DNA from: Candidatus Curtissbacteria bacterium RIFCSPLOWO2_02_41_11
GTDB lineage: Bacteria; Patescibacteriota; Microgenomatia; Curtissbacterales; GWA2-41-24
Direction: 5' to 3'
DNA length: 64,000 bases
Assembly (NCBI GenBank): GCA_001775055.1
Contig: MFBU01000007.1
Coordinates: 1,683-65,682 of the forward strand
The notes under the pieces were generated by a model. The model did no database searches, was not told the origin of the DNA, and saw nothing but the letters and a program-made list of their open reading frames with translations. The position numbers and the translations under genes are program-made. Positions 4,555 to 54,281 of this stretch are shown one piece after another; positions within the stretch are counted from its first letter, which is position 1, and every line of letters starts with the position of its first letter.

Positions 4555-4650
4555 GATACATCAGAGGAGCGCACTGAGTTTATCGCACTTCGACATTGCT
4601 CAGTGCGACTCTGAGCTAATCGAAGAGTCGAAGGGCGATCTGCTGATATA
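4555..4650. repeat. family-A MITE-like repeat, copy 1 (TIR 'atacatcagaggagcgc' ... 'ggcgatctgctgatata')
   Basis: terminal inverted repeats shared with copies at 9623-9686, 37171-37256, 46578-46636; internal hairpin 'gcactgag..ctcagtgc'. Confidence 0.7.
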
Positions 4651-7770: not shown

Positions 7771-7821
7771 TTTAACAAAATTTAAAAGGGTAACGCAAGG
7801 GTTTTTAAACACGGCCCGCGG
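7771..7821. repeat. family-D repeat (right arm)
   Basis: see 6611-6670; adjacent 7728-7760 also carries the 'gaagctttatgcgaagga' 18-mer shared with 44199-44216. Confidence 0.5.
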
Positions 7822-8689
7822 ATCCAAATACCTCAATTTTCGCCTCAACCACTGCCGCCACCGCCAAAATTACATCCGGCACAAGCTTATACATTGCGTA
7901 TTCATCAGGATTCTCAGCCATTTTCTCACTCAAAGCATCTTTATATTCCTGCCGCAGTTCCGTATTGACATTAATTTTGACAATTTTGCCAACCTCAATC
8001 GCGCGCCTGACTTGATCAGCCGATATCCCAGATCCGCCATGCAGCGAAAGAAAAGTATTAGGCAGTGACTTGCGAATTCTTGCCAAAAGGTCAAGATCTA
8101 AATCCGGTTGAGTTGGGAAAACTCCATGGACATTGCCAAAAACCGCAGCCATTATATCGACACCGGTTTGAGATACAAACCGCGCAGCCTTCAGCGGATC
8201 AGTATATGATTTATGAAGTGCCTCAAAATCAATCTCCTCATTATGAACCACACTTGAACCGGCAATTTTGTCAATCTCTCCTTCGACAAGAACCTGCCTG
8301 CCGGCAGGCAGGGCCTTTGCATGCGCCGCTTCAATTACTTTTTTGCAACCACTGATGTTCTCTGAAAACTCAAGTTCTGAACCATCAAAGTGGATTAGGT
8401 CGAAACTTGACTGATCAATTGCTTGCATACAATCTTCAACCTTTTTTGCATGGTCCAGATTTAAAAGAATCGGAATGCCGTATTCCTCTCTCGCGTTGAC
8501 TACCAGACTGACAATATTTTTTAATCCAAAATATTCCACCTCACCTGACGAAAATTCCACCATCACCGGCGATTTTTTGCGCTGAGCCGCCACACAAATC
8601 GCCTTAAAAATATCTAAATTATCCGCATTAAACGCCCCGATAGCAAAACCATCTTGTTGAGCTTTCTCAAACCATTCTCTTACAGTCAT
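7805..8689 (-). CDS. fba: class II fructose-bisphosphate aldolase
   Basis: 294 aa; 'FAIGAFNADNLD' N-terminus and 'HGGSG' zinc-site region typical of class II ketose-bisphosphate aldolases; carries palindrome 'cctgcctgccggcaggcagg' in-frame ('LPAGRQ'). Confidence 0.85.
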   Translation of the reverse strand: MTVREWFEKAQQDGFAIGAFNADNLDIFKAICVAAQRKKSPVMVEFSSGEVEYFGLKNIVSLVVNAREEYGIPILLNLDHAKKVEDCMQAIDQSSFDLIHFDGSELEFSENISGCKKVIEAAHAKALPAGRQVLVEGEIDKIAGSSVVHNEEIDFEALHKSYTDPLKAARFVSQTGVDIMAAVFGNVHGVFPTQPDLDLDLLARIRKSLPNTFLSLHGGSGISADQVRRAIEVGKIVKINVNTELRQEYKDALSEKMAENPDEYAMYKLVPDVILAVAAVVEAKIEVFGSAGRV

Positions 8690-9105
8690 ATCTTAGCCTT
8701 CCTCTCCCTTGCCTCCGAATAAATCTTCAAACCCCAAAAGCCGTTTATCGCTGCCATTAAAAGGTAGGGAATCCAGAAAACTGATTTTAAAGTCGTCGCT
8801 GTTCCTCCCAATTCAAAACCCTCCAGTACAAAAATCAAAATCATTGCAAATTCAAAAATCGAAATCAAAGTTACCAGTACTGTTGCGCGCATAGTCCTCA
8901 CCAGCCATAAAAAGGCAGCCGGTCCAAACATCAAAATTCCCAAAACCATCCCGTTTAAAACTTCCCGACTGATAACAAAATCCCAAAGATTAAGAAAAAT
9001 AATGATAAAAAGCAAATTAATCTTTACCAGATTTTTCTCAAACTTACCCTCAATTTTGAGATATTCAATTACTTTCATAGCCAAAACCAGCACATTTTTT
9101 GACAT
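8686..9105 (-). CDS. hypothetical multi-TM membrane protein
   Basis: ORF extends to 9327 but that overlaps rpiB by 200 bp; start most plausibly at an internal Met (~9105-9132). Confidence 0.3.
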   Translation of the reverse strand: MSKNVLVLAMKVIEYLKIEGKFEKNLVKINLLFIIIFLNLWDFVISREVLNGMVLGILMFGPAAFLWLVRTMRATVLVTLISIFEFAMILIFVLEGFELGGTATTLKSVFWIPYLLMAAINGFWGLKIYSEARERKAKI

Positions 9106-9121
9106 GTCATTTTTTTTGATG

Positions 9122-9601
9122 TTATCCTTCATTTTCGAACTTGGATATTTTGTCAACCCTTCTCTGATGGCGACCACTTTCAAACTTGGTATCAAGCCAG
9201 ACAGAAACTGCCTTTTTGGCATCATCTGCCGATAGAAACCTAGCACCAAGTGACAAGATATTTGCATCATTATGCTCGCGAGCAAGTCGAGGAATCGAAG
9301 ATCCTGAGCTTGTCGAAGGACCTCCATAATAAACCGCTGCTCTTATCCCTTTTACTTTATTGGCAGCAATTGCCTCCCCTTGACCGGAACCGCCAATGAC
9401 TATCCCCACATCATCGGGTTTACCCTGAGCGTGGCTTTCCGCCACGCGAAGGGCGCAAGGGATTACAAAATCTGGATAATCGTCATCTTCATTAAGCTCA
9501 AATGCCCCCATGTCCTCAACCTCCAAACCTTTGATCTTAAGATACTGGATCAACTGTTTTTTAAGATAAAATCCAGCATGATCGGCCGCAATGTAAATCA
9601 T
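9122..9601 (-). CDS. rpiB: ribose-5-phosphate isomerase B
   Basis: 159 aa; 'IYIAADHAGF', 'GIVIGGSGQGEAIAANK', 'LAREHNDANILSLGARF' RpiB/LacAB signatures; small repeat-like insert (~9270-9325, 'PSTSSGSSIP'). Confidence 0.85.
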   Translation of the reverse strand: MIYIAADHAGFYLKKQLIQYLKIKGLEVEDMGAFELNEDDDYPDFVIPCALRVAESHAQGKPDDVGIVIGGSGQGEAIAANKVKGIRAAVYYGGPSTSSGSSIPRLAREHNDANILSLGARFLSADDAKKAVSVWLDTKFESGRHQRRVDKISKFENEG

Positions 9602-12860: not shown

Positions 12861-14198
12861 CTAAATCTTAAAAGTTTTCTTAACCTTTAAAATTCCCTCC
12901 ACCAACCGATCTATCTCCTCTTTCGTATTGTAAATATAAAAACTCGCTCGCGCAGCCGATGCTATTCCTAAAAACTCCATCAAAGGCTGGGCGCAGTGAT
13001 GACCGGAGCGAATGGCAACTCCTTCCGAATCAAGAATCGAAGCCACATCATGGGCATGAATGTTGCTGACGTTAAACGAGACGACTCCAGCTCTTTTGTC
13101 ATCATCAAAACCACCTCTCTTGTCATCGCGAGCAAAGCGAAGCGATCTATTCTCGCTATTTTTAGATTGCTTCGTCGTCCCGATTGAATCGGGGTTCCTC
13201 GCAATGACATTTGAACGTGGTCCATAAATAATTACATCCGGAATCTTCGACAGTCTCTCAATCGCATACTTCGTCAGCTCAATCTCATGCTTCCTTATAT
13301 TATCCATCCCCAAAGCTTGTAGATAATCCACTGCTGCCCCAAGCCCCACGACTCCGGCCACATCAGGGGTCCCAGCCTCAAATTTCCAAGGCAAATCATT
13401 CCAAGAAGATTCATCAAGGGTAACTTTTGAGATCATCTCTCCTCCAAACAAAAAGGGCGGCATCTTTTCTAAAAGTTCGCGCCTTGCCCATAGAACTCCG
13501 ACTCCAGTTGGCCCCAGCATTTTATGTCCTGTGAATACATAAAAATCACAGCCGATTGAGCCGATATCAACCGGCATATGAGGAACAGCTTGCGCACCGT
13601 CAATCAGGATTTTCGCCCTCGGTGATTGTCGACGGACTATAGTCGACAGACTATCGACCTGATTAATTGTTCCAAGAACGTTTGAAACATGGAAGAAAGT
13701 AACAAGCTTCGTCTTTTTAGTTAAAGCTTTCTTAAAAGCAACTAAATCCAGCTCTCCATTTTCATCAACGGGAATTATTTTAAGAACTGCGCCGTTTTCC
13801 GCCGCCAATTGCTGCCAGACCACAAAATTCGAATGGTGCTCGGCAACCGTCAACACGATCTCATCTTCCTTATTTATATTGAGTCTTCCCCAAGCATAAG
13901 CGACTAAATTAATTGCCTCGGTCGCATTGCGAACAAAAATAATTTCGCTAACATCCCCGACTCCCAGAAATTTCGCAATCTTAGCTCTTGCTGTCTCATA
14001 AGCCTCCGTCGCCTCAACGCTAAGAGTGTGAATTCCCCTATGCACATTGGCATTATGACTTCGATAATAGTTAGTAATCGCCTCAATTACCTGCCTCGGC
14101 TTCTGTGAAGTCGCCGCATTATCCAAATAAACCAACGGATGGCCATTGACCTTGCGGCTAAGAATCGGAAAATCCCTACGAATCTTTGCAATATTCAT
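12861..14198 (-). CDS. sufS: cysteine desulfurase SufS (carries ~90-bp in-frame repeat insertion)
   Basis: 445 aa; 'LDNAATSQKP', PLP-lysine 'FTGHKMLGPTGVG', active-site 'RSGHHCAQP'; ~35 aa longer than typical SufS. Confidence 0.85.
   Translation of the reverse strand: MNIAKIRRDFPILSRKVNGHPLVYLDNAATSQKPRQVIEAITNYYRSHNANVHRGIHTLSVEATEAYETARAKIAKFLGVGDVSEIIFVRNATEAINLVAYAWGRLNINKEDEIVLTVAEHHSNFVVWQQLAAENGAVLKIIPVDENGELDLVAFKKALTKKTKLVTFFHVSNVLGTINQVDSLSTIVRRQSPRAKILIDGAQAVPHMPVDIGSIGCDFYVFTGHKMLGPTGVGVLWARRELLEKMPPFLFGGEMISKVTLDESSWNDLPWKFEAGTPDVAGVVGLGAAVDYLQALGMDNIRKHEIELTKYAIERLSKIPDVIIYGPRSNVIARNPDSIGTTKQSKNSENRSLRFARDDKRGGFDDDKRAGVVSFNVSNIHAHDVASILDSEGVAIRSGHHCAQPLMEFLGIASAARASFYIYNTKEEIDRLVEGILKVKKTFKI
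13121..13210. repeat. TIR-bounded element inserted in-frame in sufS ('cttgtcatcgcgag...ctcgcaatgacat')
   Basis: 12-bp terminal inverted repeats; encodes 'IARNPDSIGTTKQSKNSENRSLRFARDDKRGGFDDDKR'; internal 'cgcgagcaaagcgaagcgatc' related to other repeat families. Confidence 0.6.
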
Positions 14199-24139: not shown

Positions 24140-24215
24140 CTACCTCCACCTCGGGGGAGTCAAAGCCTGCCTACCGGCAGGCAGGTCCACCCCCAAGGTG
24201 ATTGCATATATGTAG
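24140..24215. repeat. GC-rich palindromic element ('cacctcggggg...gcctgcctaccggcaggcagg...cccccaaggtg')
   Basis: nested inverted repeats; the 'cctgcc..ggcagg' palindrome recurs at 8293, 35496, 51116. Confidence 0.5.
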
Positions 24216-25841: not shown

Positions 25842-27881
25842 TTACCCCAAAATTTCCCTAACTTTATTAATAATAGAAGAAGCAGAAATTCCTTCCCAGT
25901 CAAGTAATTGATCGGGTTTCCCCGACATCGGCAATTTGCCAACCGCCAGCTTATAAATTTTAACCTTTCCACTTTGGGCAAAAACATTTAAAACCGCATC
26001 GCCAAGACCCCCGTCAAAATAGTGATCCTCAACCGTAATAATCAAATTATTGGTTTGTTGGGCAGATTTTTTGAGGGTTTTCTCATCAATCGGTTTGATA
26101 CTGTAGGCATCAATTACTCTGACTCTAATTCCTTTTTTGGCAAGTTCATCGCAAGCTTTTATCGTCTCAATTAGAGTCACCCCACAGGCAACAATTGTCA
26201 GCTTATCATCTTTACTTGATCTGACAACTTTACTGCCACCGATTTTAAACTCTTCTTTCTGATCATAAATGACAGGTGTTGCTGGTCTGTTTGTGCGAAT
26301 GTAGAAAATGCCCTGATTTTCGGCAGCCAGCGCAACTAGCCGGACACAGGAAACAGCATCAGCCGGATATAAAATCGTACTGCCGAAAATTGAGCGAAAC
26401 ATTGCCAGATCCTCAAGCCCCATTTGTGAAGGGCCGTCTTCGCCGATTGAAACACCGGCATGCGAACCCACAAATTTGATATTGGCACCAGAAATCGCAC
26501 TTATTCTAATTTGATCGGCTGCCCTACTTAAAAAAGCCGCGAAAGTCGAGACAAAAGGAATTTTGCCGCGTTTAGAAAGACCAAGTGCCACACCAACCAT
26601 ATTTTGCTCGGCAATAAACATTTCAAAAAACCGCTCTGGGTATTTTTCTTTAAAAAGTTCAGAATATGTTGAATTCTTGACTTCCGCATCAAGACTGACT
26701 ATACGTGGATCAATCTCGCCAAGTGCAACTAATGCTTCCCCGTAGGCTTTGCGAGTCGGAACCATCTCGCCTAATTGATAATTAACTTTTAATTTTTGAT
26801 TTGTAATTTTGAATTTTGAATTTCCCGACCTCGTCTCGACTCGGTCGAGGACGGGTTGAATTTTGAATTTTTCTGTAGTTGGTTTCTTTATCTCGCTCTT
26901 GATCTCAAAATCAATCTCACCTAATTCTTTTACTGCCTCTTTAAATTGTTCTTCGGATAACGCCTTTCCATGCCAACCTTCCTTATCCTCCAAAAAGCTA
27001 ACACCTTTACCTTTAATTGTTTTAGCAATAATCATCTGGGGTTGACTCGATCCATCTGGCAACAAATCAAGAGTCCGCACAATAGACCTTAGATCGTGTC
27101 CATCTACAAGATGAGTTTGCCAACCAAAAGCCTCAATGCGCTCTTTATATTTATCAACGTCCCAACCAAGCATCGTCTGACCGCTTTGCCCAAGTCTGTT
27201 AATATCAATAATGCCCACCAAATTACCCAGTTTATAATAAGAAGCAAGCTCAACAGCTTCCCAAACTGATCCTTCGCTAGTCTCAGAATCACCCATCAGA
27301 ACGTACACTTTTGGAAGAGTATCACGGGTATCACGAGCTTGAGAATTGCGGGTGGCAGTGGTAGGAGGGTTCCCGACCCCACTTCGCTTCGCTTCGAGGG
27401 GCACAGCAGCGCTATCATCGCTGGCGGGCTTGCCCACCGAAGCTTTAGCGGAGGCGGGAGGGAAACCACTGACAGGACCCGAAATTCTCATCGCCAGTGC
27501 CATCCCAAGACCAATCGAAAGCCCCTGCCCTAAAGAACCGGTTGCCACATCCACATATTTAAAACGGGGAGTCGGATGCCCTTCAAGCGGACTTTCAAAC
27601 TTCCGATAGCCATCTAATTCTTTCTCTGTCAATACTCCAGCTGCAGCATAGAGTGCATAAAGCAGAGGTGAAGCATGGCCTTTGGAAAAAATCACCCTAT
27701 CATTAGCCGAATTTTGGGGATTTTCAAGATCAAATCGCAAGTGATTAAAGAAAAGGGCAACCATCAGATCGGTTGCCGAAAGCGAAGAGGTTGGATGTCC
27801 CGAGCCGGCCTTGGTAGTCATGCGCAAAATATAATAACGAACTAACTTCGCCAGCTTCTCAAGCTTAGCAATATCTGCCAT
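25842..27881 (-). CDS. tkt: transketolase (with two in-frame repeat insertions)
   Basis: 679 aa; ThDP motif 'GDSETSEGSVWEA', 'SHAGVSIGEDGPSQMGLEDLAMFR', N-terminal 'AGSGHPTSSLSATDL'. Confidence 0.85.
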   Translation of the reverse strand: MADIAKLEKLAKLVRYYILRMTTKAGSGHPTSSLSATDLMVALFFNHLRFDLENPQNSANDRVIFSKGHASPLLYALYAAAGVLTEKELDGYRKFESPLEGHPTPRFKYVDVATGSLGQGLSIGLGMALAMRISGPVSGFPPASAKASVGKPASDDSAAVPLEAKRSGVGNPPTTATRNSQARDTRDTLPKVYVLMGDSETSEGSVWEAVELASYYKLGNLVGIIDINRLGQSGQTMLGWDVDKYKERIEAFGWQTHLVDGHDLRSIVRTLDLLPDGSSQPQMIIAKTIKGKGVSFLEDKEGWHGKALSEEQFKEAVKELGEIDFEIKSEIKKPTTEKFKIQPVLDRVETRSGNSKFKITNQKLKVNYQLGEMVPTRKAYGEALVALGEIDPRIVSLDAEVKNSTYSELFKEKYPERFFEMFIAEQNMVGVALGLSKRGKIPFVSTFAAFLSRAADQIRISAISGANIKFVGSHAGVSIGEDGPSQMGLEDLAMFRSIFGSTILYPADAVSCVRLVALAAENQGIFYIRTNRPATPVIYDQKEEFKIGGSKVVRSSKDDKLTIVACGVTLIETIKACDELAKKGIRVRVIDAYSIKPIDEKTLKKSAQQTNNLIITVEDHYFDGGLGDAVLNVFAQSGKVKIYKLAVGKLPMSGKPDQLLDWEGISASSIINKVREILG
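26809..26870. repeat. hairpin element with 15-bp flanking direct repeats, in-frame in tkt
   Basis: 'ttgaattttgaattt' + 'cccgacctcgtctcgactcggtcgaggacggg' + 'ttgaattttgaattt' (TSD-like). Confidence 0.6.
27346..27484. repeat. dispersed element inserted in-frame in tkt (same family/frame as 18133-18260 in sufC)
   Basis: encodes 'ISGPVSGFPPASAKASVGKPASDDSAAVPLEAKRSGVGNPPTTATRNSQ'; also contains 'gaagctttagcgga' shared with 18415 and 7737/44199. Confidence 0.7.
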
Positions 27882-27946
27882 ATTCCAAGATTAGCACAAG
27901 AGAAAAGGCTGCGACTATTAGGAGAAAATAAGGTCAAGGGGAATTG

Positions 27947-35464: not shown

Positions 35465-36290
35465 GCGTTAATCGGTTACGAAGCCAGTTTCGTTTACCTG
35501 CCTGCCAAGCAGGCAGGGCGGTTACGTTTTACGTCTGACGCCTCACGATACGGGCGTCGTCACCCTAACCGTCTGACCTTAACCCGCGCTCCTTGCTATC
35601 TCTACCTCTTTTTCAATATCAACGGCAAAAACCCAGGAAAAGTTGGCCGCCACCACAAAAGCTATAATGGCAATCTGCGCATAGGTTACTCCCAGAATCG
35701 TCGAGATAACTAAAAAAGCCACAGAAAGCCAAAGGAAAACGAGCCAAATGGCCGCCTGATGATAAAGGTGGTAACTTGGAGCAACTAAGCTTTCCAAATT
35801 GAGTCGAACTAGTCTGGCATGAAGAGTTGGATGGATGTGGCTTTCATGAAAAAAGTGGGCACGCACCAAAACTATAATTGTGCCCAGGGCGGCTATTGAA
35901 AACATCGCTAAATTCGAATAATTTTCGGCAATAGTGTAATTGGCCAAATCGGTAAAGTGAACAGATGGCAACACCTTAAAAATTTGGCCATTGACAAGAG
36001 TTATGGGCATTTTTAAAAAATAGATGACCAGAAAAAGCCCGAGCATTTTACCAAAGATCAAGGCTGCAGCCGGCATGATCGCCTCATCAATTAACTTGGC
36101 TAGCGATTTGGTGATCATACTCTAAATATAGCAGATTCCGGAAAGCAGATGGTTACGGTGACGATACCCGTTTCGTGAGGCGTTTTGGGTCTTACGTGTT
36201 TATTGGTTTTTACGATTAACGTAACCGATAAACGATACGAGCATCGTGACCCTTCAGCTCTAAACGAAACCCAGGCAAACTGACTTCGCC
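35465..36290. mobile_element. candidate non-autonomous cassette: ~100-bp imperfect inverted repeats flanking one membrane-protein gene
   Basis: left arm 35531-35575 'acgtctgacgcctcacgatacgggcgtcgtcaccctaaccgtctg' is reverse-complement-similar to right arm 36146-36197; outer segments also match ('cgaag(c/t)cagttt', 'cggttacg'). Confidence 0.5.
35579..36118 (-). CDS. hypothetical 5-TM membrane protein (cargo of IR-flanked cassette)
   Basis: 179 aa; no known domain. Confidence 0.35.
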   Translation of the reverse strand: MITKSLAKLIDEAIMPAAALIFGKMLGLFLVIYFLKMPITLVNGQIFKVLPSVHFTDLANYTIAENYSNLAMFSIAALGTIIVLVRAHFFHESHIHPTLHARLVRLNLESLVAPSYHLYHQAAIWLVFLWLSVAFLVISTILGVTYAQIAIIAFVVAANFSWVFAVDIEKEVEIARSAG

Positions 36291-38708: not shown

Positions 38709-38781
38709 TTCATTAATTAGTTTAGCACTTCGGTAAACTCAGTACGAGCCCTTCGACAAGCTCAGGGCAAGCCCGAGAAGT

Positions 38782-41866: not shown

Positions 41867-41923
41867 TTTTATCGCTAATTTAAGCTAATTGTAAGCAAAT
41901 GTTAGCTAATGAGCGAATTCGCT

Positions 41924-41943
41924 CATTCGTTTAAATTCGCTTA
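41924..41943. repeat. perfect 20-bp palindrome AATGAGCGAATTCGCTCATT between groES and groEL
   Basis: similar 'attcgctcattcg' at 12845-12860 between sufS and sufU. Confidence 0.6.
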
Positions 41944-41967
41944 AAATTCGTTCCTATTCGCAAGTAA

Positions 41968-42252: not shown

Positions 42253-42309
42253 TTTTGTCTAAGGTCTAACGACTAAGGACTAAAGCTTTAGACATTGGTC
42301 TTTAGTCGC

Positions 42310-42388
42310 TTGCGATTTTTGTGTAAAAATCGCGAGCACTTTCTGTCCGCGACTGCTAATATTTTAACAATGATTTTTAATTTGTCAA
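42310..42388 (-). promoter_or_regulatory. groES promoter (TTGACA-16-TAAAAT) followed by degenerate CIRCE-like element and an 11-bp inverted repeat
   Basis: minus strand: 'ttgacaaattaaaaatcattgttaaaat' then 'ttagcagtc-N9-aagtgctcg' then 'tcgcgattttt-acac-aaaaatcgcaa'. Confidence 0.45.
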
Positions 42389-44126: not shown

Positions 44127-44139
44127 TAAAAAATCCCTC

Positions 44140-44225
44140 CTTCGCCAAGGCTACGGAGGGTAAACCCCCTTCGCCACAACTATTGGAGGGCTCGCTCTCC
44201 GAAGCTTTATGCGAAGGAGAGCCCG
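44140..44225. repeat. pyrG-leader hairpin repeats ('ccctcc...ggaggg', 'gctctccgaagctttatgcgaaggagagc')
   Basis: 18-mer 'gaagctttatgcgaagga' identical to 7737-7754. Confidence 0.55.
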
Positions 44226-50424: not shown

Positions 50425-50427
50425 CCC

Positions 50428-51621
50428 ATGATAATTTTAGGGATTGAATCCACCTGTGACGAGACCGGAGTAGCAATTGTTGAGTGGGATCCTTCTCAAG
50501 ACTCGGGACTAAAGGTTTTAGCTAATGTCATCGCCTCCTCGGTTGAATTGCATAAAAAGTATAGCGGTGTTGTTCCGGAGGTTGCAGCACGCGAGCAAGT
50601 AAGAGTAATTATCCCCGTGGTCAATGAGGCTTTGACAAGAGCATTCGGATCAATTCGCAGTAATAATTCGTACAAATTTGGATGCCAAATTGATGCCATT
50701 GCAGTTGCTCACGGTCCGGGACTAGTCGGCTCACTTTTGATCGGTGTCGAAACTGCCAAGGCTCTAGCTTTAGTCTGGAATAAGCCATTGATCCCGATTA
50801 ATCACCTGATGGGTCATGTCTATGCCAATTGGCTTCAACCAGTTGGTAGTATTGAGTCGGTAGCTGGTAGTAAAAATAAAAAAACTAAAAACTACAAACT
50901 ACGAACTCCAGACTTTCCTTTAGTCGCCCTAGTCGTCTCCGGTGGACATACGGATTTAATATTGATGACCGATCATAACAAATATCGATGGCTTGGCGGA
51001 ACTTTGGATGATGCAGCCGGCGAAGCGTTCGATAAAGTGGCTCGAATTTTGGGATTAGGATATCCTGGAGGGCCGGAGATTGAGCGAGCAGCTCAACAAC
51101 TGACAACTGACAATGGGCCTGCCTTACCGGCAGGCAGGCAATTGACATTTAAATTACCTCGGCCGCTGATTAACTCGACCAGCTTTGATTTCTCATTCTC
51201 GGGGCTTAAGACTGCCGTTGTTCATTATTCTAGTCAAATGTCAGATACTCGCCTCGCTTCGCTTGCGAAGCGGGTCAAAGGTCCCGGCGCCGTCAAAACT
51301 TTAGCAGGCAGGCAAGTGTCTGCGATAGCGCATGAGTTTCAGCAGGCAGTATGCGATATTCTAGTAACAAAAACCTTAAGAGCCGCCAAAAAATATCAAG
51401 TGGAATCAATTGTTGTCGGTGGAGGAGTAGCAGCAAATCAACGGTTGCGTTCACTGTTAACGGTTAATGGATCACGGTTGGGAATTCCTGTTTTCTTTCC
51501 AGAGAAAAATCTTTCAACTGACAATGGGGCAATGATTGCCGCAGCAGCGTTCTTTCATCCGTATCAAATTAATCCTCTGAAACTTTCTGCAGTTCCCGGC
51601 CTTTATTTCGATCAAACTTGA
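50428..51621 (+). CDS. tsaD: tRNA N6-adenosine threonylcarbamoyltransferase TsaD (with three repeat-derived in-frame insertions)
   Basis: 397 aa (~55 aa longer than typical); 'ILGIESTCDETGVAIV', 'VAHGPGLVGSLLIGV', 'VSGGHT', 'GGGVAANQRLR'. Confidence 0.85.
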   Translation: MIILGIESTCDETGVAIVEWDPSQDSGLKVLANVIASSVELHKKYSGVVPEVAAREQVRVIIPVVNEALTRAFGSIRSNNSYKFGCQIDAIAVAHGPGLVGSLLIGVETAKALALVWNKPLIPINHLMGHVYANWLQPVGSIESVAGSKNKKTKNYKLRTPDFPLVALVVSGGHTDLILMTDHNKYRWLGGTLDDAAGEAFDKVARILGLGYPGGPEIERAAQQLTTDNGPALPAGRQLTFKLPRPLINSTSFDFSFSGLKTAVVHYSSQMSDTRLASLAKRVKGPGAVKTLAGRQVSAIAHEFQQAVCDILVTKTLRAAKKYQVESIVVGGGVAANQRLRSLLTVNGSRLGIPVFFPEKNLSTDNGAMIAAAAFFHPYQINPLKLSAVPGLYFDQT

Positions 51622-51662: not shown

Positions 51663-52073
51663 CCAGAGGTTCGCCCTCTGGTTTATTAGTGGTCAATGGA
51701 GAGAGAAGATTCAACCGCTTATAGTCAGAGGATTACCCTCTGTTATACATCAAGAGTTTGGGAAGAGTTACCTGCAGGCTTAACCGCATCTATCGACTTT
51801 GTAATTGAAGAAAACTCAGCAAGGCGTTTACAAGTTTGCAGCCAAGAGGGGACAGTTAAAACTCTTGATAGTCGCAGAAGAGGAGTCAACATATTAATGG
51901 ATTTTGATCCAACACTAGACAATGTCCCTTTACCTAAAAAAGCATTACGAGAAAATTAGCCCAAGTTTCCAATTATCTTTCTTTCTGCAATAATATAAAG
52001 GTCGAAATACTTACTTTACACGTGGGGGTAAAATTAGAGTCCGCGGCCACATGAAAAGAAATTACTGACTCTC

Positions 52074-54248
52074 ATGAAATTTAAAAACGAAAATGATATC
52101 TATGCTTTTTGGAAAAAGTCCGGCTTTTTTAAAGCCGACCCGACTTCTACCAATAAACCTTATTCCCTGTTAATCCCCCCTCCAAATTTAACTGGCGAAC
52201 TTCACTTGGGTCATGCCATGCAGCATTCTATTTTAGATGCAATCGCCCGCTTTAAAAGGTTACAAGGATTAGATGTTTTACTTTTGCCCGGAGTCGATCA
52301 TGCCGGAATTTTGTTTGAGGCGACATTTGAGAAAGAACTTGAAAAAGAAAATTTATCTAAGGAAAAACTCGGGCGTGAAGAATGGCTAAAAAAAGCCTGG
52401 CAATTCAAAGAAAAAATTTATCAATCAGTTTCCTCGACTTGGCGATTTATGGGACTTTCCGCAGATTGGTCAAGAGAAGTTTTTACATTAGATCCCGATC
52501 CTCAAAAAGCGGTCTTTGAAGAATTTAAAACCTATTTTGAAAAAGGCTTAATTTACAAAGGTCCTTACATTGTTCAATGGTGCCCTGGATGCAATACGGC
52601 CATTGAGGATGTGGAGGTGGAATACGATGAGAGAAAAGAAAAATTATATTACCTCAAATATGGTCCATTAATCTTGGCAACTGCCCGACCAGAAACAAAG
52701 TTCGGTGACACGGCAATGGCCGTCAATCCGCAGGACAAGCGTTACCAAAAATATGTCAGTTGCGAATTTGAAATCGAAACTCTCGCAGGAAAAAGGGGAA
52801 TGAAAGTTATCGCTGATGAGGCGGTTGATCCAAAATTTGGGACTGGGGTGATTAAAGTAACTCCGGGTCACGATTTTGCGGATTATGAAATTGGCAAGAG
52901 ACATAATCTACCAATCATCCAAGTGATTAACAAAGAAGGTAGACTGACCAAGGCAGCTGGTAAATATGCAGGGATGAAAGTTGATGAAGCAAGAAGAGCG
53001 ATGATCCCAGAGCTTAAAAAAAGAGGACTCTTAGTTAAAGTGGAAGACTATACTCATTCGGTTGCAGTCTGCGAAAGATGTAAAAGTGTAGTTGAACCTT
53101 TAATTTCCGAAGAGTGGTTTGTCAAAGTCAAAGATATGGCAAAAGAAGCAGTCAAAGTAATAAAGGCGGGAAAGATTGAATTTTTGCCAAATAACTATGG
53201 CAAAATCCTGATTGACTGGTTTGCTAACATTCACGATTGGTGCATTTCAAGATCTCTTTGGTGGGGACATCGAATACCCGTTTGGTATCCTTCAACTCGC
53301 TCAGCTCACTCAGGACAAGTCGAAAAGATGAGGGTCTCTTTAGAATCACCAGGAGACGGATGGATACAAGACGAGCAGGTTTTAGATACCTGGTTCTCTT
53401 CCGGGCTTTGGCCAATGTCAACTTTAGGATGGGTCGGAATAAGTCAAAGTGAAAAGTCAAAGTGGAAAGAAATGTCCAAGTATTTCCCCTGGGATTTTGA
53501 AATCTCGGCACCGGAAATTAAGTTTTTGTGGATTGCTAGGATGATTATGATCAGTAAATATTTTACAGACGAAATTCCATTTAAAACTATGTTTTTTCAT
53601 GGGATGCTTCGAGATCTTTTGGGTCGAAAGTTTTCCAAATCGCTGGGAAACGGCATCGAACCAACTTATCTAATTGAAAAATGGGGCGTTGATGCTACTC
53701 GTATGGCTCTTTATACCTACAGTATTCCTAGCCGCGATGGCCGGGTTTCAAAAGAAATAATGGACGAGCGAGGTAAAAATTACCGCAATTTTGCAACCAA
53801 AGTTAGAAATATAGCCAGGTTTATTTACGAACTCAAACCAGATTCCTCCTCCGAGGTGAAGTCTAGTCAACATCAAGAGAGCACCTCGGAGGTGGAGCAT
53901 GCGGATGACAAGTGGATTTTGGGTGAACTTGAGAAAACTATCAAATCAGTAACTAAAAATCTAGAAGAAATCAAGCTTCACTTGGCATCTGAGGCAATTT
54001 ACGATTTTATCTGGCACAAATTTGCCGACATTTATCTTGAAAAAAGCAAAGCAAGGAGAGAAGAGGCCCAACCGGTTCTGGAATATGTTTTAAAGACCAG
54101 TTTAATAATTCTACATCCATTTATGCCGTTTACGACCGAGGAAATTTATCAGAAATTTGCAGACAGGAAGAAGTCGATCATGTTGGAAGAATGGTCTATC
54201 ATTAAGTTGTCGAATGCTAGAAGACTAACGACTAACGCAAAAGGTTAG
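52074..54248 (+). CDS. valS: valyl-tRNA synthetase
   Basis: 724 aa; HIGH 'PPPNLTGELHLGHA', KMSKS 'KFSKSLGN', editing domain; short C-terminus; palindromic in-frame insert at 53846-53893. Confidence 0.9.
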   Translation: MKFKNENDIYAFWKKSGFFKADPTSTNKPYSLLIPPPNLTGELHLGHAMQHSILDAIARFKRLQGLDVLLLPGVDHAGILFEATFEKELEKENLSKEKLGREEWLKKAWQFKEKIYQSVSSTWRFMGLSADWSREVFTLDPDPQKAVFEEFKTYFEKGLIYKGPYIVQWCPGCNTAIEDVEVEYDERKEKLYYLKYGPLILATARPETKFGDTAMAVNPQDKRYQKYVSCEFEIETLAGKRGMKVIADEAVDPKFGTGVIKVTPGHDFADYEIGKRHNLPIIQVINKEGRLTKAAGKYAGMKVDEARRAMIPELKKRGLLVKVEDYTHSVAVCERCKSVVEPLISEEWFVKVKDMAKEAVKVIKAGKIEFLPNNYGKILIDWFANIHDWCISRSLWWGHRIPVWYPSTRSAHSGQVEKMRVSLESPGDGWIQDEQVLDTWFSSGLWPMSTLGWVGISQSEKSKWKEMSKYFPWDFEISAPEIKFLWIARMIMISKYFTDEIPFKTMFFHGMLRDLLGRKFSKSLGNGIEPTYLIEKWGVDATRMALYTYSIPSRDGRVSKEIMDERGKNYRNFATKVRNIARFIYELKPDSSSEVKSSQHQESTSEVEHADDKWILGELEKTIKSVTKNLEEIKLHLASEAIYDFIWHKFADIYLEKSKARREEAQPVLEYVLKTSLIILHPFMPFTTEEIYQKFADRKKSIMLEEWSIIKLSNARRLTTNAKG

Positions 54249-54281
54249 AAAGCTTTAGTCGTTGAGCTTTAAGCGTTAAGC

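What the first reader, a model, noticed from the sequence alone, without database searches (positions are those of the whole stretch)
13121..13210. TIR-bounded 90-bp element inserted in-frame in cysteine desulfurase sufS
SufS here is ~35 aa longer than usual. The extra segment ('IARNPDSIGTTKQSKNSENRSLRFARDDKRGGFDDDKR') lies between the conserved 'IYGP' and 'GVVSFN' blocks.

At the DNA level it is bounded by 12-bp inverted repeats ('cttgtcatcgcgag' ... 'ctcgcaatgacat'). It contains 'cgcgagcaaagcgaagcgatc', related to 'ctcgcgagcaagtcgaggaatcgaagatc' in rpiB (9258-9290) and to the 'cgcttcgctt' motif family.
Basis: seen in the sequence. Interest (0 to 1): 0.7.

Follow-up and report, generated by a model that had tools for sequence, protein, structure and literature searches.

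The report
Palindromic repeat inserted in-frame in sufS

Summary
The sufS gene (12861-14198, minus strand, 445 aa) carries 36-39 extra residues between IYGP and GVVSFN. The DNA at 13121-13209 is a nested inverted repeat that folds strongly (z = -5.1).

The element is an inverted doublet of a 27-45 nt unit, GTCATYGCGAG-x-CGAAGCRATCT. One unit carries a nested mini-hairpin. A 17-nt direct repeat next to the element adds 8 more codons.

It is mostly intergenic, shows no target-site duplication, and also sits in-frame in KsgA and GcvT elsewhere. I found no Rfam family and no paper for it.

Among 121 Curtissbacteria-like SufS sequences, 62 carry in-frame inserts of at least 10 aa, at 7 internal sites. 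Site 328 holds 29 inserts, which fall into several unrelated-looking sequence types.

AlphaFold2 keeps the SufS fold (TM-score 0.94) and gives the insert pLDDT below 50, between two strands.

The claimed relation to rpiB rests on a 10-nt chance match. rpiB does carry a different short repeat in-frame.

Verdict: a Rickettsia-palindromic-element-like passenger with REPIN-like anatomy. It is a new member of a known kind. How it moves is unknown.

The parts
12861..14198 (-). sufS (type II cysteine desulfurase), 445 aa. The ORF is intact. K226 and H383 are invariant and C402 and R397 nearly invariant (at least 90%) in the homologue alignment, and the query carries all four.
13121..13209 (-). The whole palindromic element. 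The core is 13122-13208 (87 nt, encoding V331-D359), plus one extra T/A pair at each end.
   Evidence: The four conserved blocks match the family found.
13164..13208 (-). Unit 1 (T/A type): GTCATTGCGAG-[GAACCCCGATTCAATCGGGACGA]-CGAAGCAATCT
13178..13193 (.). Mini-hairpin nested in the variable slot of unit 1 (CCCGATTGAATCGGGG). A similar hairpin occupies the same slot in an unrelated genome (L032).
13149..13163 (.). Spacer, which forms the loop between the two inverted units
13122..13148 (+). Unit 2 (C/G type), inverted relative to unit 1: GTCATCGCGAG-CAAAG-CGAAGCGATCT
13087..13127 (-). Two copies of a 17-nt direct repeat (13111-13127 and 13087-13103, 15 of 17 identical, 24 nt apart). It includes the last 7 nt of the element. 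It adds 8 codons, giving DDKRGGF followed by DDDKRAGV.

Best explanation
**What it is.** The segment is a copy of a small, non-autonomous, hairpin-forming repeat. It is an inverted doublet of a 27-45 nt unit, GTCATYGCGAG-variable-CGAAGCRATCT. It has landed inside the sufS coding sequence, at the turn between two beta-strands of the C-terminal domain.

**Why the gene survives.** The conserved blocks contain a stop codon in only one of the three frames. The net added length is a multiple of three. The reading frame therefore stays open, and the element is translated as about 29 residues. With 8 duplicated codons this makes a 36-39 residue, charged, disordered surface loop that the enzyme tolerates. 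Selection acts only as a filter: insertions persist where SufS has loops or termini. It is a passenger, not an adaptation.

**Shown:** the anatomy, family membership, the intact ORF, the gap in orthologues, the loop position in the secondary structure, and recurrence at the same sites in relatives.

**Inferred:**
- That the element is translated and harmless.
- That it was inserted fairly recently. All four blocks are perfect, and neither the nearest relative (P0003) nor the closest insert-free relative (P0008) carries it.
- That it is mobilised in trans. Given the hairpin doublet and the absence of target duplications, the likeliest agent is a single-strand (HUH/Y1, RAYT-like) enzyme, as for REPINs. 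This last step is the weakest.
For: **In-frame insert relative to orthologues**
- The insert sits in-frame relative to orthologues and to solved SufS structures.
- Removing the 87-nt core and one repeat copy leaves 6 residues between GP and GV. Orthologues have 7.

**A real repeat family**
- In the loci examined, 82 full elements (the three searched blocks plus the fourth) carry the fourth block, CTCGCRATGAC, exactly. That block was not part of the search pattern.

**Mostly intergenic elsewhere, but sometimes inside genes**
- In L053, three copies lie between ordinary genes.
- Only 10 of 78 copies lie in long open frames.
- At least two of those sit inside Pfam domains: KsgA in L091 and GcvT in L098.

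**The same doublet in other SufS genes**
- The same doublet, in the same orientation, sits at the same sufS site in L001 and L004.
- Those copies have a different nested piece and a different loop.

**SufS relatives are full of inserts**
- 62 of 121 carry an insert of at least 10 aa.
- The inserts fall at 7 internal sites plus both termini.
- Every site lies between secondary-structure elements of the model.

**Structure**
- pLDDT is below 50 for residues 330-363, which are coil, between strands 322-325 and 372-377.
- The core matches SufS with target-normalised TM-score 0.94.

**Other genes in the window**
- Transketolase, TsaD, a class I tRNA synthetase, fructose-bisphosphate aldolase and RpiB also carry short repeat or hairpin segments in-frame.
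Against: - There is only one copy in 64 kb, so multi-copy status in this genome is unproven.
- No transposase was identified. A tblastn search with an IS200 TnpA sequence recalled from memory found nothing in 1.8 Mb. This is a weak negative.
- There is no target-site duplication and no empty-site polymorphism, so mobility is inferred from distribution only.
- The blocks are identical between lineages whose sufS third codon positions are only 45% identical. That could mean nucleotide-level function rather than recent insertion.
- 26 of 29 insert-bearing alleles have [RK]A before GV, against 3 of 80 insert-free ones. This association is not explained by a purely neutral passenger model.
- Translation and enzyme activity were not tested.
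Confidence: 0.78

Rival explanations
1. The hairpin is kept by selection at the nucleotide level. It would act in cis on the suf operon as a structured RNA or DNA site, for example an RNase III or other nuclease site, a pause site, or a protein-binding cruciform. Its translation would be a side effect.
For: - The blocks are about 100% identical between the query and L001, while the sufS flanks are 67.7% identical and third positions 45% identical.
- The four blocks are conserved across many named bacterial groups.
- The position just outside the blocks covaries: Y on the left, R on the right, complementary in 55 of 78 against about 34 expected.
- The fold is strong.
Against: - The conservation is equally well explained by new copies being made from intact masters.
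- The variable slots and loops are unconstrained.
- Neither the nearest relative (P0003) nor the closest insert-free relative (P0008) carries the element.
- Unrelated sequences occupy the same site in other orthologues.
- No Rfam family matches at E up to 10.
- Elsewhere the copies sit in arbitrary intergenic places.
Confidence: 0.1
2. The insert is an adaptive, lineage-specific protein loop, for example for partner docking, and its DNA palindromy is incidental.
For: - The frame is kept open.
- Insert-bearing alleles share an R-A-G motif at the protein level, using different codons: AGA GCT in the query against CGG GCG in L001.
- By my own numbering, the site-378 insertion hot spot lies next to the conserved His (H383, equivalent to B. 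subtilis H342). From memory of the SufS-SufU literature, that His contacts SufU.
Against: - The same DNA occurs intergenically and in other reading frames in unrelated genomes.
- pLDDT is 33-36, with no predicted structure.
- Orthologues carry inserts of several unrelated-looking sequence types, or none, at this site.
Confidence: 0.06
3. The insert is an intervening sequence removed after transcription or translation (an intron or a mini-intein), so mature SufS has normal length.
For: It is a discrete insert in a conserved gene, and it forms a strong RNA structure.
Against: - At 87 nt it is far too short for a group I or group II intron, and there is no Rfam hit.
- The 29-39 aa lack intein splice-junction residues and are far shorter than any intein (sequence).
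- Every such insert seen here is in-frame and stop-free. Splicing would not require that.
Confidence: 0.03
4. The insert is an assembly or sequencing artefact, or a local slippage product that is not a dispersed element.
For: There is a single copy in the window. A neighbouring 17-nt direct repeat shows that local duplication does occur here.
Against: - An independent assembly has the identical insert.
- Related elements sit at the same site in four other assemblies.
- The family is present in isolate genomes of Pedobacter, Sphingobacterium and a Chitinophagaceae bacterium.
Confidence: 0.03

Closest known systems
Rickettsia palindromic elements (RPE; Ogata et al. 2000 Science 290:347, as summarised in PMC10969869 and PMC3184786)
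   Same: - Both are short palindromic repeats inserted in-frame in unrelated housekeeping genes and translated as extra peptide segments compatible with the protein fold.
- Both occur in small-genome bacteria.
- Both also occur outside genes.
   Different: - RPEs are about 105-150 bp and are Rickettsia-specific families. This element is 60-110 bp.
- Its conserved blocks are shared across many named bacterial groups.
- It is built as an inverted doublet of a smaller unit with nested mini-hairpins.
- In SufS relatives, inserts of several unrelated-looking sequence types share the same loop.
- Sequence similarity to RPEs was not tested.
REP / REPIN elements mobilised by RAYT transposases (Bertels and Rainey 2011, PMC3116915; Nunvar 2010)
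   Same: - Both are two short imperfect palindromes in inverted orientation, separated by a spacer, that form a long hairpin.
- Neither shows a target-site duplication.
- Both are mainly intergenic and dispersed.
- In both, singlets and doublets coexist.
   Different: - By established knowledge, REP sequences are species-specific and begin with GTAG. This family begins with YGTCAT and is shared across many bacterial groups.
- No RAYT was identified.
- This copy is intragenic and translated.
Enterobacterial small mobile sequences (RU-1, RU-2, RU-3 and ERIC) with open reading frames (Delihas 2007, PMC2759123) and pneumococcal BOX/RUP/SPRITE repeats (Croucher 2011, cited in PMC3184786)
   Same: Both are MITE-like repeats found fused in-frame to genes, either internally or as 3' extensions. 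The unit at the sufC 3' end in L004 is such an extension.
   Different: Those repeats are larger (100-170 bp), restricted to a genus or family, and often have target duplications and terminal inverted repeats related to an insertion sequence.
Small dispersed repeats of cyanobacteria (Elhai et al. 2008, Genome Res; cited from my own knowledge, not read here)
   Same: Both are very small (about 21-27 nt) hairpin units that are found nested inside other repeats.
   Different: They were described in Nostoc and its relatives. Neither sequence relation nor in-frame colonisation of genes was tested here.

Membership tests
MITE (miniature inverted-repeat transposable element) | Terminal inverted repeats | tested here: met
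   The arms are 15 nt long and 87% complementary. The 12-nt YGTCATTGCGAG ends are conserved in 78 copies.
MITE (miniature inverted-repeat transposable element) | Small size with no transposase gene inside | tested here: met
   The element is 87-89 nt and lies entirely within the sufS frame.
MITE (miniature inverted-repeat transposable element) | Target-site duplication flanking the element | tested here: not met
   The distribution of flank direct-repeat lengths in 78 copies equals that of the shuffled control. The 17-nt repeat in sufS lies on one side only.
MITE (miniature inverted-repeat transposable element) | Many copies in the same genome | tested here: inconclusive
   One copy in 64 kb. 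The whole genome is not available. Other genomes hold several copies per 8 kb (L053, L046).
MITE (miniature inverted-repeat transposable element) | A parent insertion sequence with matching terminal repeats | not tested
   No insertion sequence with these ends was looked for beyond the L053 neighbourhood, which holds ordinary genes.
REPIN (REP doublet forming a hairpin) | Two inverted copies of a short imperfect palindrome separated by a spacer | tested here: met
   Units lie at 13164-13208 and 13122-13148 with a spacer at 13149-13163. In 78 copies the variable positions covary within a unit (77 of 78), not across the arms.
REPIN (REP doublet forming a hairpin) | A cognate RAYT (Y1 HUH transposase) in the genome | tested here: inconclusive
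   tblastn with an IS200 TnpA sequence recalled from memory gave no hit in 1.8 Mb. The query sequence is unverified, and RAYTs are distant from IS200 TnpA.
REPIN (REP doublet forming a hairpin) | Extragenic location and species-specific sequence with a conserved GTAG head | tested here: not met
   This copy is intragenic. The head is YGTCAT. The blocks are shared across many named bacterial groups.
Rickettsia palindromic element (RPE) | Palindromic repeat inserted in-frame in protein genes at positions compatible with the fold | tested here: met
Rickettsia palindromic element (RPE) | Sequence belongs to one of the RPE families of Rickettsia | not tested
   No RPE sequences were available to compare. 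Host, length and architecture all differ, so membership is not claimed.
Intein or self-splicing intron | Splicing motifs, or a catalytic RNA fold of adequate size | tested here: not met
   The insert is 29-39 aa without intein junction residues. There is no Rfam match at E up to 10.
SufS (type II cysteine desulfurase), the host gene | Aminotransferase class V fold with the PLP lysine and the catalytic cysteine loop | tested here: met
   - Pfam PF00266 matches with E = 1e-149.
- The best PDB hit is SufS with E = 1e-144.
- Foldseek gives TM-score 0.94 to SufS structures.
- K226 and H383 are invariant and C402 is nearly invariant.

The most novel reading that the evidence does not exclude
The four-block palindrome (YGTCATTGCGAG ... 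CGAAGCAATCT ... AGATTGCTTCG ... CTCGCAATGACR) and its 27-45 nt unit may be an undescribed, pan-bacterial class of tiny modular mobile DNA.
- Its blocks are kept identical across many bacterial groups.
- Other mini-hairpins nest in its two variable slots.
- It moves without target duplication by an unidentified mechanism.
- In CPR bacteria, it and similar short repeats colonise loops of essential enzymes on a large scale. Half of the SufS orthologues and about 6 genes in this 64-kb window are affected, which would make such repeats a major source of protein length variation in these reduced genomes.
Probability: 0.3. Interest if true: 0.75.

Novelty: new member of a known kind. Interest (0 to 1): 0.55.

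Why it matters
- **A second large-scale case.** In-frame colonisation of essential genes by palindromic repeats is best known from Rickettsia. Here the same thing appears in a free-standing CPR lineage, and much more densely. SufS orthologues carry inserts at 7 internal sites, and half of them are affected.
- **Practical consequences.** This explains much of the odd length variation of CPR proteins. It warns annotators and structure predictors that such segments are repeat-derived.
- **A natural map of tolerant sites.** The inserts show where SufS accepts insertions.
- **An open question about the repeat family.** The family is shared across many named bacterial groups and is absent from Rfam and from the searchable literature. 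What keeps its blocks identical, and what moves it, are open questions that can be tested.

Tried and rejected
- **Relation to rpiB 9258-9290 and to 'cgcttcgctt' sites.** These are only 10-11 nt matches at chance level. I rejected the link. rpiB instead holds an unrelated 17-mer repeat.
- **Second copy in the window.** blastn-short and a two-block search allowing 2 mismatches per block found none.
- **Rfam.** Nothing at E up to 10.
- **Literature.** Searches by DNA blocks, by translated peptides, and by 'Patescibacteria + MITE' found nothing relevant.
- **Plasmid collection.** One partial hit only.
- **Protein search with the insert peptide.** The first query was too short, and the second found no candidates. 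One search was wasted.
- **Metagenome scan for SufS loci.** Only 7 close relatives came back, all insert-free at this site. DNA-level comparison of the other insert types at site 328 was therefore not possible.
- **Insert-bearing alleles as one clade.** I rejected this. They are scattered in the neighbour-joining tree, and the nearest neighbour also bears an insert in 14 of 29 cases against 7.5 expected.
- **The element as terminal repeat of a larger transposon (L053).** I rejected this, because ordinary genes lie between the copies.
- **Transposase search.** The IS200-type search was negative but weak.
- **3-D distance to the PLP site.** This was not obtainable, because the tool returns no coordinates.
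Full report
**1. The observation**

The minus-strand ORF 12861-14198 encodes a 445-aa protein. It is a class V aminotransferase (PF00266, E = 1e-149), and the Pfam match is split into two stretches.

Its best solved relatives are SufS of Bacillus subtilis and E. coli, with E around 1e-144 to 1e-130. phmmer aligns residues 1-328 and 368-443 and leaves 329-367 unaligned, exactly between 'YGPE' and 'ERAGLVTFN' of 5j8q. Of the 120 closest database homologues, 79 have exactly seven residues between G[PS] and GV, typically K-D-A-K-K-R-G. The query has 43. The insert is real and is 36-39 residues long.

At the DNA level there are nested inverted repeats:
- 13121-13135 with 13195-13209 (15 nt, 87% complementary);
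- 13138-13149 with 13163-13174 (12 nt, 92%);
- a small internal hairpin at 13178-13193.

The 111-nt region folds at -45.2 kcal/mol as RNA (z = -5.1; 1 of 200 shuffles as good) and at z = -4.6 as DNA.

An independent metagenome assembly (L005) is 99.77% identical over 7.4 kb and has the identical insert. It is therefore not an assembly artefact.

**2. Anatomy**

Read on the sense strand of sufS, the element is:

T-GTCATTGCGAG-[GAA CCCCGATTCAATCGGG ACGA]-CGAAGCAATCT-[AAAAATAGCGAGAAT]-AGATCGCTTCG-[CTTTG]-CTCGCGATGAC-A.

It is therefore an inverted doublet of one unit, GTCATYGCGAG-variable-CGAAGCRATCT. The first unit is the T/A variant and carries a nested mini-hairpin. The second is the C/G variant. 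The 87-nt core encodes V331-D359.

Immediately downstream, a 17-nt direct repeat (13111-13127 and 13087-13103, 15 of 17 identical, 24 nt apart) includes the last 7 nt of the element and adds eight codons, giving DDKRGGF followed by DDDKRAGV. By my estimate, a chance match of this quality within the 231-nt region has a probability of about 0.002. The most likely origin is a slippage duplication after insertion, but the 7 nt between the two copies do not match, so the origin is unresolved.

**3. It belongs to a widespread family**

- **Which organisms.** The hits come from Chloroflexota, Bacteroidota (including isolates of Pedobacter, Sphingobacterium and Chitinophagaceae), Omnitrophota, Planctomycetota, Gemmatimonadota, Zixibacteria, Thermoanaerobaculia, Alpha-, Gamma- and Deltaproteobacteria, Methylomirabilota, Peregrinibacteria and others.
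- **The fourth block.** In 82 full elements the fourth block, CTCGCRATGAC, which was not part of the pattern, is present exactly.

Across 78 copies with adequate flanks:
- The palindrome extends by one covarying pair (Y on the left, R on the right), complementary in 55 of 78 against about 34 expected.
- There is no target-site duplication; the distribution equals the shuffled control.
- The two variable slots are rarely complementary to each other (3 of 78). Each is its own mini-hairpin in about 60% of cases where it is at least 9 nt long.
- The Y/R variable positions covary within a unit (77 of 78), not across the arms. The unit is therefore the evolutionary module.

Elsewhere the elements are mostly intergenic. 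In L053, three copies lie between ordinary genes. Ten of 78 copies lie in long open frames, and at least two are inside Pfam domains of real genes: KsgA/RrnaAD in L091 and GcvT in L098.

No Rfam family matches. No paper in the searchable library contains the blocks or their translations.

**4. SufS relatives are riddled with in-frame inserts**

The best-named homologues are Candidatus Curtissbacteria (CPR/Patescibacteria), and lengths range from 388 to 506 aa. In a MAFFT alignment of 121 sequences, 62 carry at least one internal insert of 10 aa or more. These fall at seven internal sites, plus extensions at the N and C termini. Every site lies between secondary-structure elements of the model.

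Site 328 holds 29 inserts, which by inspection fall into several unrelated-looking sequence types:
- VIAR..TKQSK..RSLRxxRDD (the query's type);
- AHLRGV..AHLGG;
- RHSELDSESRSRNEFGMT;
- SFTPGV..TPGV;
- RSFASAQDD;
- others.

The query's type occurs at the same site and in the same orientation in P0106 (L001-L003) and P0082 (L004). There it has a different loop, and in L004 a different nested hairpin. Single units also occur at the sufC 3' end in L004 and inside sufD in L001.

Insert-bearing alleles do not form one clade. The nearest neighbour also bears an insert in 14 of 29 cases, against 7.5 expected. The query's nearest relative, P0003, carries a different insert at this site, and its closest insert-free relative, P0008, has the short native loop. 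Neither has this element.

**5. Age and constraint**

- **Query against L001.** The sufS flanks are 67.7% identical at the nucleotide level, and third codon positions are 45% identical. The four blocks of the element are identical, and there is no elevated similarity in the adjacent flanks.
- **L001 against L004.** The element plus about 30 nt on each side is 93-98% identical, against 77% overall.

Because the blocks are identical across many bacterial groups anyway, their identity here does not date the insertion. The element is absent from the closest relatives examined, and all four blocks are perfect. The simplest reading is a relatively recent insertion of an intact copy. Nucleotide-level constraint is the alternative.

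Recombination within sufS does occur in this population. All 17 differences between the window and L005 fall within nt 342-480 of sufS.

**6. Structure**

AlphaFold2 with a 50-sequence alignment gives mean pLDDT 81.5 and pTM 0.83. Residues 330-363 have pLDDT below 50 and are coil, lying between strands 322-325 and 372-377. The model superposes on SufS structures with target-normalised TM-score 0.94 over about 405 residues. K226 (PLP lysine) and H383 are invariant in the alignment, C402 (catalytic cysteine) and R397 are nearly invariant, and the query has all four.

The insert is therefore an extra disordered loop at a beta-hairpin turn of the small C-terminal domain. I could not measure its distance to the active site because coordinates are not returned. 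From the secondary structure, it lies at the opposite end of strand 372-377 from the H383 loop. This is an inference.

**7. Why the frame survives**

Reading the blocks directly, GTCATTGCGAG, CGAAGCAATCT and AGATTGCTTCG have no stop codon in any frame. CTCGCRATGAC has a TGA in one frame only. Because the element is palindromic, the same holds in both orientations. A copy that adds a multiple of three nucleotides therefore has roughly a two-in-three chance of being stop-free. In compact CPR genomes with little intergenic space, insertions often land in genes, and only those in loops of essential proteins survive.

**8. Mechanism**

- **Shown.** The segment is a member of a dispersed palindromic repeat family. 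It is inserted in-frame at a tolerant loop, and the gene and fold are intact.
- **Inferred.** It is translated and roughly neutral.
- **Mobilisation is unknown.** The doublet-of-hairpins anatomy and the lack of target duplication resemble REPINs, which are moved by RAYT (Y1/HUH) enzymes acting on single-stranded DNA. However, the head sequence differs, the family is not species-specific, and no such enzyme was found. That last result is a weak negative.

**9. Comparison with what is known**

In behaviour the element matches Rickettsia palindromic elements (reviewed in PMC10969869 and PMC3184786) and other repeats that fuse in-frame with genes (Delihas 2007, PMC2759123). In anatomy it matches REPINs (PMC3116915). 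It is not shown to be a member of any of these families. As a MITE it fails the target-duplication criterion. As a REP it fails the criteria of extragenic location, species specificity and GTAG head.

**10. Unexplained**

Twenty-six of 29 insert-bearing alleles have [RK]-A before GV, against 3 of 80 insert-free alleles, which mostly have R-G. The codons differ between lineages (AGA GCT against CGG GCG), so this is a protein-level association. Possible causes are:
- relaxation of a glycine needed for the tight native turn;
- a permissive pre-existing allele (P0042 has the short loop with A);
- spread of the region by recombination.

**Verdict**

The phenomenon is of a known kind, but it involves a new, very widespread repeat family in a new host group. 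Interest is moderate.

Noticed in passing
window 27371-27462 (ORF 25845-27890, minus strand): This is the strongest hairpin in the window (-52.8 kcal/mol per 100 nt). It lies in-frame in transketolase (peptide FPPASAKASVGKPASDDSAAVPLEAKRSGVGN) and splits the Transketolase_N Pfam match into two stretches. It is a different palindrome family that contains CTTCGCTTCGCTTCG.
   Followed up: partly
window 53842-53898 (ORF 52038-54245, plus strand): A 15-nt inverted repeat, TCCTCCTCCGAGGTG / CACCTCGGAGGTGGA, lies in-frame in a class I tRNA synthetase (peptide DSSSEVKSSQHQESTSEVEH). It sits in the linker between the catalytic and anticodon-binding domains. It resembles the AHLRGV..AHLGG inserts of SufS relatives read in another frame.
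   Followed up: partly
window 9303-9319 (rpiB, minus strand) and 38750-38766 (intergenic, plus strand): There are two exact copies of the 17-mer CCTTCGACAAGCTCAGG, against 0.1 expected. The rpiB copy is in-frame as PSTSSGSS. Similar PSTSSG-type peptides occupy site 378 of several SufS relatives. This is a different, non-palindromic short repeat family.
   Followed up: partly
window 51250-51320 (TsaD, ORF 50425-51618) and 8285-8320 (fructose-bisphosphate aldolase, ORF 7808-8692): Short palindromes lie in-frame in both genes: CGCTTCGCTTGCGAAGCG in TsaD and CCTGCCTGCC/GGCAGGCAGG in the aldolase. The TsaD Pfam match spans 343 residues for 263 profile positions, and the aldolase match about 15 extra residues, which suggests inserts.
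   Followed up: partly
window 4561-4625, 24146-24200, 35495-35520, 44137-44220: Further strong hairpins (at or below -38 kcal/mol per 100 nt) lie outside long ORFs. Several contain CCTGCCTRCC..GGCAGGCAGG or CCTTCGC..GCGAAGG cores. They are probably intergenic copies of the same kinds of short repeats.
   Followed up: no
window 13719-13857 (sufS nt 342-480) compared with L005: All 17 nucleotide differences between the window and the independent assembly L005 (7415 nt aligned) fall within this 139-nt stretch of sufS. The stretch spans the site-142 insertion hot spot. It looks like a recombination patch from a diverged allele.
   Followed up: partly
SufS homologues P0001-P0120, site 328: Insert-bearing alleles have [RK]-A before GV in 26 of 29 cases. 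Insert-free alleles have it in 3 of 80 cases and mostly have R-G. The codons differ between lineages. No explanation so far accounts for this.
   Followed up: partly
L233 2695-2819 (viral contig IMGVR_UViG_3300002446_000392): Four copies of the 26-nt unit lie head to tail with a 33-nt period. This is a tandem array of the same unit that forms the sufS element.
   Followed up: no
L001 11300-11395 and L004 11140-11232 (3' end of sufS): The two loci share a 24-aa C-terminal extension, GKWDGRRKNKNDNLHTHHPIILST, encoded by a strong hairpin (z = -4 to -6). It is 90-100% identical between loci whose sufS is 77% identical overall. It looks like a terminator-like repeat read through as coding sequence. 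48 of 120 homologues have C-terminal extensions.
   Followed up: partly
window 41874-41961, 42266-42337, 54213-54277: Intergenic inverted repeats are built from CTAACGACTAAGGACTAAAGC-like motifs. This is another dispersed repeat in the window.
   Followed up: no
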